Of a stretch of 59,204 nt of DNA, positions 6,001 to 9,000 are shown in pieces. The stretch is taken from positions 23,294 through 82,497 of the forward strand of contig CAYMDW010000003.1 in assembly GCA_964389615.1 (NCBI GenBank), in the 5' to 3' direction. The stretch is from an uncultured Gammaproteobacteria bacterium (lineage in GTDB: Bacteria; Pseudomonadota; Gammaproteobacteria; JABCZS01). The position numbers are program-made. Numbering within the stretch: the stretch's first letter is position 1; the number at the start of each line of letters is the position of its first letter.

Positions 6001-9000
6001 CGTTGCTTCCGCGAAAACAAATTTATTGCCTACCTGCAAATTGAAGGCATGACCAAAGAAGATTTTTTACAAATTCCGGGAATCAATCCCGTAAAAATCG
6101 AATTAATGTGCATGAATTTAGAGGCAGTGAAATTTCTAAAAACTCATGGCCTTCAGATCGCGGATTATGGAAACGTGGATGAAAATAGACTCGAGTATAT
6201 TTTTACGTATTTCAAAGAGGCCAAATCTGCTCTTGAATTCGTCGACGTATTTGATTTATTGGCCTTAAGAAGCACCAGTCCTTTGCTACGCGCCTATGGC
6301 ACAAGAACCAGACCCGCGATTGAAACTCAAGAGAGGCAAATTCCACTGGTCGAATCCCAGAGTCCTTCCTGCAATATCTTTTAAAGCCATCGCTATCCGC
6401 TGGCCCCATGATGCAATGTCGTGGGGCTAATTTAGAGGTTCGTTAAATCAACATCTCAGGAACATAATCTTTAGAAGAGATCAGATCCTTGGAAAGACTA
6501 TGCACACTTTCCAGCATCCGCTCGATGTCTCGATAATTTAACGATTGCTGGAGTGCCCAAGCTTCGGTAAGTGAACGAAATACCGTTTCGAGGGGTTGTT
6601 GTAACAGCATGGGTGTGATCGCCTCCTCAGGCAAACCTCGAAGAAAACGAGGCATCTCTCGAAGGGTTAAATGATTGGGGCCGATGATTTGTGCATAAAA
6701 TCCGAGTTGATTTAATTTTTGTGCAAAATGTTCGGCTTGGGCATGGATCAATTGAATGGGGGTTAGTAAAGGGACCTTGGGTTTTTCTGCTTGATTTAAA
6801 TAATGCGTCCACTGCGCCTGCAGAAAATTTTGCAGGGTTTTGATCCAGTTGATCGCCCGTAACATAGAATTGTCTTGCATGATGATGACGCGTTTGTCGA
6901 GGACGGTGAGGACGCGGCCCAGGGGATGAGTTGTGACAACCCCCGACCGGGGTACCGGTCTGCCCCCTTCAAAGGGGACGGGCTCATCACGAGGTGGTCG
7001 CTCGATTGGGCGAAGGGACTGAGTAGGGACCTTTGCTGGCCCGACAGTGGGTGCGGCCACAATCGGATTCAACACCTTGTGCAAGGCACTGAAAATAAAA
7101 TCATGCACGGTGCGTGCCTCACGAAAACGCACCTCATGCTTGGTCGGATGAACGTTCACATCGACTGCACTGTGATCACAATTCAAATGAAGGACATAAG
7201 CCGGATAACGCCCGGGATAAATTTTATCTTCAAAGGCCATGCGAATGGCATGACTGAGCATTTTATCGCGCACCATGCGACCGTTCACATAACAAAATTG
7301 AAGATCATTACTCGAGCGCGCGGCACTGAGATCGCCCAGCCAACCCTCCAATCGAAAGGCAGATATCGAATCGTCCACACGCAAGGCTCCTTGCATAAAC
7401 GATTTACTGAGCACCTGCTCGATACGCAAGACAGGATCTTGTGCGACGCGGACGAAACGTTTCACTAGCTTTCCCTCATGAAACAAAGAAAAACCGACAT
7501 CGGGCCGAGCCAAGGCCATCCGTTTGATCATTTCTTCAATATGAAGAAATTCTGTCCGATCACTTTTCATGAATTTACGCCGCGCAGGCGTATTGAAAAA
7601 AATATCAGCAACTTCAACCGTCGTGCCGCGTGGATGTGCCGCAGGGGAAATGGTGAGACTCATGTCCCGCCCTTGCGCGGAGGCACAGAGTGCATCATGG
7701 CTGTCGTGTTGTGAGGTGATCGTCACGCGAGCGATCGAAGCGATACTCGCCAAGGCTTCTCCACGAAAACCTAAGGTCCCGATTTGGGCCAGATCTGCAG
7801 GGTGAAGAATTTTGCTGGTGGCATGGCGTGCAAAGGCAAGTGAAAGATCTTCGGGATGAATGCCCAGCCCATTGTCCTGAATGCGGATCAATTCACGCCC
7901 ACCCCCGAGTAAATGGATATCGAGTTGCGTGGCGCCGGCATCTAAACTATTTTCGAGTAATTCTTTGACCACCGAAGCGGGACGTTCGACGACCTCGCCT
8001 GCAGCAATTTGATTGGCCAATAGAGGGGGGAGCAGCTGTATTCGAGACATTGCAGTCCTTTTATTCGTAGGGGCTAATACGGATGCGTACTCGCATCCAA
8101 TTAGCCCGCGCGCAGCGTTGAACAATCTTTTACAAGCTCTGCGAGCTTGCGGGCTAATTGGCTGGAGTACCAGCCGTATTAGCCCCTACGAAGCAGCGCT
8201 TCGTGAAAATACTAGCACAGGTCTACGCCGATTTCATTTTCTTCCATGCAGAGTCAGGCAAGGTTCCGCACAGCAAATGCAATTCCCTTTCTTGGGTTTC
8301 AGCTGTGGTGTGGAAAGGTCTGAACATCAGGGGATGCCGCGTGGCCTCTTGTCTTGCTCCATCGACTTCCACGGTAGGAGGCCCAGGAATTTCTTTGCAC
8401 GTGAGTTGCCTGTAGGCTTGGTTGGTTTGCGTCAGTTCCGCATCGATGATGTCTTCATAGCCGACTTCTCTCCCGTCTTCCCCGGAAAGAAAAGAAGCCA
8501 CCCCCCCAGCAAAAGCCGTTAAAACACCGATCACCATGCCCCCGAAACCGGTGAGCAAGCCAACCCCGCCTATAAATGCAGGCACGGAGTTCATTGCTGC
8601 GTTCACCCAACGCGTGAACACTTGGTATTTTTCGCCGGGACTGTGCGATAAGCCAGGTTCAAGATTTTTTTCAGCCTGTGGTTTTTGCTCAGACGTCTCC
8701 ACCGTGTTTTGTTTGACATAATCACTTTCATGAAGTTTGACGGCATTCTTCAAGGCTTTATCCAGGTAAAAGGGCATCAAGCTCATGGCCATGATGCTGA
8801 GCAAGGCGCACCCCGCCCCAAATGGAATTCCGAGCAGAGAGGAAGCCATGTCCGCTGCAGCCAAGGCCGTGAAGACCGTTCCTATGAGGGTGCAGGCAAA
8901 GACCCAGGTAAAACGCCATAAATGTTTTGCGCTAGCCCTTTCAAATAATTCCCCGTAACTCAGGGTCGTGATCAGCGCAAGATTCGGCTTCAACAAACGG

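What the first reader, a model, noticed from the sequence alone, without database searches (positions are those of the whole stretch)
8064..8192. REPIN-like doublet of a REP family with unusual, covarying hairpin architecture
Seen: two inverted units, GTAG-GGGCTAAT-AC-GGATGCG-TACT-CGCATCC-A-ATTAGCCC-GC and GTAG-GGGCTAAT-AC-GGCTGG-TACT-CCAGCC-A-ATTAGCCC-GC. The inner stems differ but keep pairing. Established: GTAG-initiated palindromes are REP elements processed by HUH RAYT/TnpA-REP nucleases, and inverted doublets are REPINs. The ~41-43-nt two-stem unit with an invariant AC/A internal loop and G-TACT-C apex is longer than the classic enterobacterial and Pseudomonas REPs, so it may be a new family.
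Basis: partly seen in the sequence, partly recalled or inferred. Interest (0 to 1): 0.65.

Follow-up and report, generated by a model that had tools for sequence, protein, structure and literature searches.

The report
GTAG-tagged REP hairpin repeat doublet
The two inverted hairpins upstream of mutL are real copies of a multi-copy, GTAG-headed repetitive extragenic palindrome (REP/REPIN) family in an uncultured gammaproteobacterium: a new family by sequence, but an ordinary example of a well-known kind of bacterial repeat.

Summary
Unit 1 (8066-8109, +) and unit 2 (8149-8190, -) are inverted 41-43-nt hairpins separated by a 39-nt spacer. They lie in the 172-nt gap between an unknown 594-aa gene and mutL. 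The window holds two more units with different but compensated stems: 44996-45037 after rph and 52408-52449 after eda.

Across the four units, CGTAG, the AC/A internal loop, the G-TACT-C apex and the GC tail never vary. All variation lies in the stems. Six of 15 pairs change on both sides, 98% of cells pair, and there are no G-T pairs.

Assembly contigs from three wastewater metagenome runs show each unit at roughly 10-60 times single-copy depth, on many contigs with different flanks. Whole doublets recur at other loci. Relatives (MutL 72-82%, RNase PH 89-91% identical) have empty sites at both loci I could compare.

This fits a GTAG-superfamily REP/REPIN. It matches the long, bulged "group 2" type described for E. 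coli, so the architecture is not unusual.

The cognate RAYT nuclease was not found in the window and could not be searched for elsewhere. There is no Rfam, plasmid or catalogue match.

Verdict: a new member of a known kind, of modest interest.

The parts
8066..8109 (+). REP unit u1: C-GTAG, 8-bp outer stem GGGCTAAT/ATTAGCCC, AC/A internal loop, 7-bp inner stem GGATGCG/CGCATCC, TACT loop, GC tail
   Evidence: (67.4 bits)
8110..8148 (.). 39-nt spacer of the head-to-head doublet. On the - strand it starts with a small hairpin, AAGCTC-GCA-GAGCTT, that resembles the 3' tail of u3. The fold is not better than shuffles.
   Evidence: In other doublet copies (X10, X2) the differences cluster in the spacer
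8149..8190 (-). REP unit u2 (inverted partner): same outer stem, 6-bp inner stem GGCTGG/CCAGCC
   Evidence: (72.4 bits). Depth about 100-127 against about 5 for single copy in X2/X3
44996..45037 (+). REP unit u3 (singleton), 15 nt after the rph stop and between convergent genes. Outer stem GGATAAAT/ATTTATCC, inner stem GGCCGG/CCGGCC.
   Evidence: (69.1 bits)
45038..45061 (+). 3' tail of u3 (AAGCCC-GCA-GGGATT-GTCAA...), which is itself repeated
   Evidence: Depth 200-325 against 4.8 in X2/X3; similarity to other contigs ends at 45053-45061; fold
52360..52407 (+). Repeated 5' flank of u4. It resembles the palindromic spacer (GCGCACAGTTCATGAATTGTGCGC) seen between tail-to-tail units on other contigs.
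   Evidence: Depth 60-80 against 4.4 in X3; loose ends
52408..52449 (+). REP unit u4 (singleton) between convergent eda (51707-52324, +) and a sodium symporter gene (52460-53812, -). Outer stem GGGAGAAT/ATTCACCC (one A-A mismatch), inner stem GCATGG/CCATGC.
   Evidence: (68.6 bits)

Best explanation
The doublet is a head-to-head heterodimer (REPIN/BIME-like) of a GTAG-tagged repetitive extragenic palindrome (REP) family. The host is an uncultured, deep-branching gammaproteobacterium.

Each unit is a single-stranded-DNA hairpin with these parts, 5' to 3':
- an unpaired CGTAG
- an 8-bp lower stem
- an asymmetric AC/A internal loop
- a 6-7-bp upper stem closed by G-TACT-C
- a GC tail

Shown here: the family is dispersed in many copies, sits in gene 3' and intergenic regions, has diversified into sub-families by compensatory stem changes, and has been gained at sites that are empty in relatives.

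Inferred from the E. coli paradigm: a single-copy HUH/Y1 nuclease of the RAYT/TnpA-REP type recognises the folded top strand through GTAG and the bulge. It then cuts and rejoins the strand, copying units or whole doublets to new sites, probably on DNA exposed at the replication fork.

Once inserted, the hairpins probably also act in the 3' ends of mRNAs as stabilisers or barriers, as other REPs do. This too is inferred.
For: 1. Anatomy. A GTAG head, a palindrome and a bulge are present in 4 of 4 units. The single-stranded-DNA folds have z of -4 to -5 per unit and -10 for the doublet.

2. Structural constraint. Of 15 pairs, 6 change on both sides, 98.2% of cells pair, and 0 of 500 shuffles reach the covariation score. 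Versions with the 3' partner slid by 1-3 columns drop to 28-50% paired. No pair changes on one side only, so there are no G-T pairs, which points to DNA rather than RNA.

3. Family specificity. The covariance model gives 67-72 bits for the four units and 12.7 bits or less for everything else in 59 kb.

4. Multi-copy and dispersed.
- In assembly contigs of wastewater runs X1-X3, unit depth is 38-325 against 4-6 for the flanks.
- Between 9 and 33 contigs per run match each locus.
- Those contigs have different flanks, and their own depths are 3-7, like the host's.
- The units also occur in wetland and peat runs and in one metatranscriptome.

5. The doublet recurs as a unit.
- X10 carries 8066-8191 next to a different right flank, with its changes in the spacer.
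- X2 carries a doublet with a similar spacer but a different left unit, and also a u2/u2 homodimer.

6. Gain at empty sites.
- The Y-gene/mutL gap is 16-89 nt and holds no unit in relatives L010-L016, against 172 nt here.
- The rph downstream site is empty in L017 and L018.

7. Location. All four units are extragenic, downstream of genes, and between co-directional or convergent ORFs. This is what is reported for GTAG REPs (PMC3733652 abstract).

8. Literature match. Group 2 REPs are long and have an obligatory bulge. GTAG is crucial for cleavage. The upper stem has only a structural role and is therefore free to covary (PMC8266576).
Against: - No RAYT/Y1 transposase gene is in the window. The 50 longest non-overlapping ORFs of 90 aa or more, plus eda, were scanned with Pfam (MutL and AmiC with NCBIfam only), and a HUH...Y motif regex found nothing.
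- I could not reach the rest of the genome, so the defining protein partner is untested.
- Assigning the extra copies to the same genome rests only on similar contig depth.
- Pond run X6 carries the doublet locus on a contig that runs straight through both units, with no other family contig. Either coverage there is very patchy or that strain has few copies.
- The apical loop TACT never varies, whereas E. coli TnpA-REP does not select the loop. Recognition here may therefore differ from the paradigm.
- No CT dinucleotide is conserved next to the units. The only invariant CT lies in the loop.
Confidence: 0.75

Rival explanations
1. The units are ends or miniature derivatives (palindrome-associated elements) of an IS200/IS605-type insertion sequence. 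They would be moved by an ordinary multi-copy TnpA(Y1) transposase, not by a domesticated RAYT.
For: The chemistry and substrate logic are the same: sub-terminal hairpins preceded by a 4-nt guide (PMC8266576). The irregular stems resemble IS608-type ends. No tool result separates the two without the protein.
Against: The invariant GTAG head, the high copy number of short units, the inverted doublets and the exclusively extragenic location are the REP/RAYT signature. No tnpA or tnpB gene lies in the 59-kb window or in about 100 kb of relatives' loci.
Confidence: 0.1
2. The hairpin is primarily a structured RNA element selected at the transcript level, for example a 3'-UTR stabiliser, a processing site or a protein-binding site. 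Its repetition would be secondary.
For: Three of the four units read CGUAG-first in the sense of the upstream gene (u2, u3, u4). Unpaired bases are invariant while the stems covary. Units appear in contigs of one metatranscriptome.
Against: - There are no G-U pairs among 57 cells.
- One unit of every doublet is necessarily antisense.
- Near-identical copies occur with unrelated flanks at 10-60 times single-copy depth, and the sites are empty in relatives, so the units behave as mobile DNA.
- There is no Rfam match.
- There is no T-run or terminator-like site.
- An RNA role is compatible with REPs and does not replace the REP explanation.
Confidence: 0.08
3. The 129-bp doublet is a conventional MITE with 22-bp terminal inverted repeats, moved by a DDE transposase.
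For: There is a 22-nt, 95% terminal inverted repeat. The size is typical of MITEs.
Against: - There is no target-site duplication: the flanks are ...CCTTTTA and GCAGCGC....
- Single units occur alone (u3, u4) and as tail-to-tail dimers.
- Each arm is itself a conserved hairpin with compensatory changes.
- No transposase gene is nearby.
Confidence: 0.02
4. The hairpins are chance palindromes or a local duplication with no family behind them.
For: My first scans of 185,579 reference genomes and of JGI metagenomes for the u1/u2 outer stem returned only chance matches.
Against: Those scans fixed the outer stem, which varies within the family. There are four units in the window against 0.01 expected. 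The covariance-model E-values are about 1e-15. Many copies exist in public assemblies.
Confidence: 0.01

Closest known systems
E. coli REP y/z1/z2 and BIMEs (GTAG-3 family; 'group 2' REPtron with TnpA-REP/RayT)
   Same: - A 5' unpaired GTAG.
- A long imperfect palindrome with a lower stem, an obligatory unpaired zone and an upper stem-loop.
- Inverted heterodimers whose partners differ in the upper stem.
- Extragenic location downstream of genes (PMC8266576, PMC3733652).
   Different: - No sequence similarity.
- The upper stem is longer (6-7 bp) and the unit is 41-43 nt.
- The internal loop is asymmetric (AC against A), not two mismatches.
- The apical loop (TACT) is invariant, whereas E. coli loops vary and are not selected.
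- The cognate nuclease has not been identified.
Pseudomonas fluorescens REPINs (GTAG-1; group 3 RAYT)
   Same: Two inverted REPs with a short spacer form one long hairpin. The doublet recurs as a unit, and singletons also occur (PMC3337134 abstract).
   Different: Pseudomonas REPs are short, essentially perfect palindromes without a bulge.
Bradyrhizobium / Rhodopseudomonas GTAG-14 and P. aeruginosa GTAG-24 REPs
   Same: Complex 'loops' with self-complementary inner regions, or long 12-13-bp stems interrupted by mismatches or bulges. Sub-families are defined by complementary stem changes.
   Different: The sequences and hosts differ. The consensus figure could not be read, and the supplementary text has no match to GTACTC, GGGCTAAT or GTAGGGG.
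IS200/IS605 ends and their miniature derivatives
   Same: Single-stranded-DNA hairpins preceded by a tetranucleotide guide and processed by HUH/Y1 enzymes.
   Different: Those flank a transposase gene and lack the conserved GTAG. Here no associated gene is seen.

Membership tests
REP, GTAG super-family (Nunvar 2010; Di Nocera 2013; Corneloup 2021) | Short (20-50 nt) palindromic unit that folds into a stem-loop | tested here: met
   Units of 41-43 nt. Single-stranded-DNA folds of -14 to -17 kcal/mol, with 0 of 200 shuffles as good. 98.2% of cells paired.
REP, GTAG super-family (Nunvar 2010; Di Nocera 2013; Corneloup 2021) | Conserved unpaired tetranucleotide GTAG at one end | tested here: met
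   CGTAG is invariant in 4 of 4 units. It is also present in the partial variants seen in loose ends.
REP, GTAG super-family (Nunvar 2010; Di Nocera 2013; Corneloup 2021) | Many dispersed copies per genome | tested here: met
   Four units in 59 kb. In X1-X3 depth is roughly 10-60 times single copy, on 9-33 contigs per locus with different flanks and host-like depth. Caveat: that these copies come from the same genome is inferred from depth, and no whole genome was available.
REP, GTAG super-family (Nunvar 2010; Di Nocera 2013; Corneloup 2021) | Extragenic location, mostly downstream of ORFs | tested here: met
   All four units are intergenic: after the 594-aa gene, after rph and after eda.
REP, GTAG super-family (Nunvar 2010; Di Nocera 2013; Corneloup 2021) | Cognate single-copy RAYT/TnpA-REP gene flanked by the same REPs (REPtron) | not testable with these tools
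   No PF01797-type ORF is in the window.
REP, GTAG super-family (Nunvar 2010; Di Nocera 2013; Corneloup 2021) | Strand-specific binding and cleavage of the folded single-stranded REP by the nuclease | not testable with these tools
   This needs a biochemical assay.
Group 2-type REP (E. coli-like) | Long palindrome interrupted by a conserved irregular zone or bulge in the stem | tested here: met
   The AC/A asymmetric internal loop is invariant in the four window units. One partial variant in X3 reads CC instead of AC.
REPIN (Bertels & Rainey 2011) | Two REPs in inverted orientation with a short spacer, able to form one long hairpin | tested here: met
   Arms at 8064-8085 and 8171-8192. Doublet fold of -51.1 kcal/mol, z -10.1.
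REPIN (Bertels & Rainey 2011) | The doublet, not only the single REP, is the replicated unit | tested here: inconclusive
   At least two further doublets with related spacers were seen (X10 record 7; X2 records 11 and 12). Singletons and tail-to-tail dimers are also frequent, and full sequences of other copies could not be retrieved.
MITE of a DDE transposon | Terminal inverted repeats flanked by a target-site duplication | tested here: not met
   The inverted repeats are present, but the flanks ...CCTTTTA and GCAGCGC... are not duplicated.
Any Rfam RNA family | Score at or above the family's gathering threshold | tested here: not met
   No hits in the whole window. Only chance-level hits appear at E up to 10 around the doublet.
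Intrinsic terminator | GC-rich hairpin followed by a T-run | tested here: not met
   No terminator-like sites in 7950-8300. No T-run follows any unit.

The most novel reading that the evidence does not exclude
The family may belong to a REP system whose recognition rules differ from both studied paradigms. The apical loop G-TACT-C and the AC/A bulge never vary across sub-families whose two stems have both been rewritten, and the only conserved CT dinucleotide lies in the loop. This could mean a nuclease that reads or nicks the loop, as rolling-circle Rep proteins do, or an orphan REP family without a RAYT, in a gammaproteobacterial lineage with no cultured relatives.
Probability: 0.12. Interest if true: 0.55.

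Novelty: new member of a known kind. Interest (0 to 1): 0.3.

Why it matters
The finding adds a REP/REPIN family from an uncultured, deep-branching gammaproteobacterial lineage. Its closest named MutL is only about 42-48% identical over the full protein.

The family also gives a clean natural data set. Both stems have covaried while GTAG, the bulge and the loop stayed fixed. That is what one would expect if a group 2-type TnpA-REP reads structure plus a few unpaired bases.

The family could be used to predict the recognition determinants of its still-unknown nuclease. It also explains why short-read assemblies of this organism break at these points. It does not change the current understanding of REPs.

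Tried and rejected
1. Scans of genome contigs and metagenome contigs with GGGGCTAATAC-N12-24-AATTAGCCC. They returned only chance matches with no inner stem and no GTAG. I ran these before I knew that the outer stem varies. They therefore show only that the u1/u2 sub-family, and the window's own genome, are absent from those collections. They say nothing about the family as a whole.

2. A scan of viral contigs with the generic pattern found nothing.

3. I concatenated six-frame translations of the doublet as a protein query, hoping to fish out spurious ORFs called over other copies. It found 225 word-sharing candidates and none with E of 10 or less.

4. Exact-protein look-ups for the window's MutL, AmiC and RNase PH, meant to reach more of the source contig, gave nothing usable.

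5. Distant blastn of the doublet and of u3 against plasmids gave no match.

6. A full-text search for the unit's sequence strings in papers, and in the supplements of the two key REP papers, gave no relevant match.

7. Terminator and promoter readings were rejected: no sigma-70-like or terminator-like site lies in 7950-8300.

8. The 22-bit covariance-model hit inside mutL of relative L016 is homologous coding sequence, not an insertion. I treat it as chance.

9. The 5' flanks of the four window units are not conserved.
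Full report
**What is at the coordinates**

- Unit u1 (8066-8109, + strand) reads C-GTAG-GGGCTAAT-AC-GGATGCG-TACT-CGCATCC-A-ATTAGCCC-GC.
- Unit u2 (8190-8149, - strand) reads C-GTAG-GGGCTAAT-AC-GGCTGG-TACT-CCAGCC-A-ATTAGCCC-GC.
- The two units are inverted with the GTAG ends outside, and a 39-nt spacer separates them.
- The outermost 22 nt form a 95% inverted repeat.

As single-stranded DNA each unit folds into the predicted two-tier hairpin (-14.3 to -16.6 kcal/mol, z about -5). 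The whole doublet can fold into one long hairpin (-51.1 kcal/mol, z -10.1, 0 of 200 shuffles as good).

**Genomic setting**

The doublet fills most of the 172-nt gap between two genes on the - strand.
- Upstream is the stop codon of a 594-aa ORF (8223-10007). It has no Pfam or NCBIfam match.
- Downstream is the ATG of mutL at 8050.

The surrounding genes form the classical gammaproteobacterial block: hflC, hflK, hflX, hfq and miaA on one side of mutL, and amiC, tsaE, orn, rsgA, psd, epmA, efp, parC, parE and recG on the other.

The organism has no close named relative. The best named MutL homologues are about 42-48% identical over the full protein, and RNase PH about 70%. All closer hits come from unnamed metagenome assemblies.

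**The family is larger than the doublet**

My first searches fixed the outer stem and found only the two units. A two-mismatch search then hit 52409 (seen again). This led to the generic pattern GTAG-N8-AC-N5-8-TACT-N5-8-A-N8-GC. That pattern has four matches in the window against 0.01 expected by chance.

The two extra units are:
- u3 (44996-45037, +): GTAG-GGATAAAT-AC-GGCCGG-TACT-CCGGCC-A-ATTTATCC-GC. It lies 15 nt after the rph stop, between convergent genes.
- u4 (52408-52449, +): GTAG-GGGAGAAT-AC-GCATGG-TACT-CCATGC-A-ATTCACCC-GC. It lies between convergent eda and a symporter gene.

**Covariation**

In the alignment of the four units, every position outside the stems is invariant: CGTAG, AC, G-TACT-C, the bulged A and the GC tail. 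Every variable position lies in a stem.

Counting pairs on the stated structure gives:
- 98.2% of cells paired.
- 6 of 15 pairs with changes on both sides.
- No pair with a change on one side only, so there are no G-T pairs.
- One A-A mismatch.
- 0 of 500 shuffles reaching the covariation score.
- 28-50% pairing when the 3' partner is slid by 1-3 columns.

With only four sequences this is a small sample, but the signal is clean.

A covariance model built from the four units scores them at 67-72 bits. The next hit in 59 kb, on either strand, scores 12.7 bits.

**Copies elsewhere**

The window's genome is not in the reference-genome or JGI metagenome collections. My pattern did not even recover the window itself.

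Public run indexes show that the doublet's 31-mers occur in wastewater, pond, wetland, peat, lake and sediment metagenomes, and in one metatranscriptome.

I laid the assembly contigs of the three wastewater runs (X1-X3) that hold the window's organism at about 4-6x depth onto the window. The results were:

| Region | Depth over the units | Depth of the flanks |
|---|---|---|
| u2 | 38-127 | about 4-5 |
| u3 and its 3' tail | 33-325 | about 4.8 |
| u4 and its 5' flank | 60-146 | about 4.4 |

- Between 9 and 33 contigs per run match each locus.
- Most of those contigs run on into sequence unlike the window, and they have many different flanks.
- Their own depths are 3-7x, like the host's.
- Similarity to u2 stops at CTAC(G) (8189-8191) on one side and at 8147-8150 on the other. 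This matches the unit boundaries.

Short-read contigs of the host also break exactly at the units.

The loose ends of these contigs reveal further sub-families that keep the same fixed parts:
- GTAG-GGGCGAAT-CC-GCGTGG-TACT-CCACG...
- CGTAG-GGAGGAAT-AC-GGCCG-TACT...
- A variant whose inner stem is shortened by one base on each side.

**Doublets at other loci**

Whole doublets recur.
- A peat-run contig carries 8066-8191 next to a different right flank. Its 8 substitutions and 5 gaps are concentrated in the spacer.
- A wastewater contig has a similar spacer but a different left unit.
- Another wastewater contig is a u2/u2 homodimer.
- Tail-to-tail dimers with a palindromic spacer (GCGCACAGTTCATGAATTGTGCGC) also occur.

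The organisation is therefore BIME-like, with singletons, head-to-head dimers and tail-to-tail dimers.

**Empty sites in relatives**

| Locus | Relative | Protein identity | State of the site |
|---|---|---|---|
| Y-gene/mutL gap (172 nt here) | L010, L012 | MutL 72% | Same amiC, unknown, unknown, mutL order; gap of 47 or 16 nt |
| Y-gene/mutL gap | L016 | MutL 82% | Gap of 89 nt of unrelated sequence |
| Downstream of rph (u3 here) | L018 | RNase PH 89% | rph overlaps the next gene |
| Downstream of rph | L017 | RNase PH 91% | Unrelated sequence |

The covariance model finds no unit in about 100 kb of these relatives' loci. The only exception is a 22-bit hit inside L016's mutL, which is homologous coding sequence and probably chance.

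The doublet and u3, the two sites I could compare, were therefore gained in the window's own lineage.

**Interpretation**

The features are:
- a GTAG head
- a hairpin of 41-43 nt
- a conserved bulge
- extragenic position downstream of genes
- many dispersed near-identical copies
- inverted dimers
- sub-families with complementary stem changes
- lineage-specific gains

Together these are the defining picture of REPs of the GTAG super-family and of REPINs/BIMEs (PMC3733652, PMC3337134, PMC2817692).

The closest mechanistic paradigm is the E. coli 'group 2' REPtron.
- Its REPs are long and interrupted by an irregular zone.
- GTAG is indispensable for cleavage by TnpA-REP.
- The unpaired state of the bulge is required.
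- The upper stem-loop plays only a structural role (PMC8266576).

That paradigm predicts what is seen here: a fixed GTAG, a fixed bulge and freely covarying stems. The absence of any G-T pair fits a hairpin selected as DNA.

I therefore take the most likely mechanism to be mobilisation of the folded top strand by a RAYT/TnpA-REP-type HUH nuclease, with secondary roles of the hairpins in mRNA 3' ends. Both steps are inferred, not shown.

**What is not supported or not tested**

The 'unusual architecture' claim does not hold. REPs are described as 20-50 nt. The two-tier, bulged layout is the enterobacterial norm, and heterodimers with different upper stems are the rule in E. coli.

The nuclease is untested.
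- No Y1/HUH ORF is in the window.
- I had no way to reach the rest of the genome.
- I spent both large scans on a pattern with a fixed outer stem before learning that the stem varies. The family's phylogenetic range therefore remains unmapped.

Two observations remain unexplained.
- The apical loop TACT is invariant, whereas E. coli loops are not selected. The only conserved CT dinucleotide lies in that loop.
- Pond run X6 carries the doublet locus at 100% identity on a contig that passes through both units, yet shows no other family contig. This may reflect very patchy coverage, since only 10% of the words in the 2.5-kb region around the doublet (7000-9500) were found in that run.

**Rivals**

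- An IS200/IS605-derived miniature element uses the same chemistry and cannot be excluded without the protein. Confidence about 0.1.
- A primarily RNA-level element is disfavoured by the lack of G-U pairs, the inverted copies, the mobile-DNA behaviour, the absence of an Rfam match and the absence of a terminator signature.
- A DDE-type MITE is rejected, because there is no target-site duplication and single units occur alone.
- Chance is excluded.

**Verdict**

This is a real, multi-copy, GTAG-tagged REP family with a REPIN-type doublet upstream of mutL. It is new by sequence and by host lineage, and ordinary in kind. Interest is 0.3. The novelty class is 'new member of a known kind'.

Noticed in passing
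window 47134-47211: Nested near-perfect palindrome and direct repeats (GTACCAAAAACGTGAA[A/G]ATCTCCAC...; arms of 28-30 nt, 87-96% complementary). They lie in the 271-nt gap between the 383-aa ORF (45864-47015, -) and the 234-aa ORF (47287-47991, +), neither of which has a Pfam match. The arrangement looks like an operator or regulatory site.
   Followed up: no
window 8223-10007 (-) and 10014-11006 (-): Two ORFs (594 and 330 aa) lie between amiC and mutL and have no Pfam or NCBIfam match. Counterparts of similar size, also without Pfam hits, hold the same position in relatives L010, L012 and L014. They appear to be a lineage-specific addition to the amiC-mutL operon.
   Followed up: partly
window 6443-8050 (-): MutL here is short (535 aa). 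The window's MutL and its seven closest homologues carry no precomputed MutL_C (PF08676) hit. The NCBIfam models match best over residues 1-340 of the window's protein. More distant MutLs of about 600-640 aa do carry the domain.
   Followed up: no
window 4951-6384 (+): A 477-aa ORF with no family match sits on the opposite strand between miaA and mutL. In relative L010 mutL is followed directly by miaA. In L012 the slot holds a PHO4 transporter and a 578-aa unknown ORF. The slot is therefore variable.
   Followed up: partly
window 20009-24352 (-), 37135-40098 (+), 31280-33193 (-): Three large ORFs (1447, 987 and 637 aa) have no Pfam match at E of 1e-5 or less.
   Followed up: no
L016 1189-1229: A REP-like sequence (CGTAGGGGTGGATCAGACCTGTACTCAAGTCATCCGCCC; 22.3 bits, E about 0.002) lies inside the mutL coding region of a relative. 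It aligns to ordinary coding sequence in the window's MutL (PTVG...RPI) and is probably chance.
   Followed up: yes
window 45038-45061 and 52360-52407; Logan contigs of X1-X3: The repeated segment extends beyond the hairpin units. There is a 3' tail with a small third hairpin (AAGCYC-GCA-GRGMTT) and a 5' segment related to a palindromic tail-to-tail spacer (GCGCACAGTTCATGAATTGTGCGC). This suggests BIME-like composite modules.
   Followed up: partly
window 8015-8284 in run X6: A pond metagenome holds the doublet locus at 100% identity on one 270-nt contig that is not broken at the units. It shows no other family contig, unlike the wastewater runs.
   Followed up: partly
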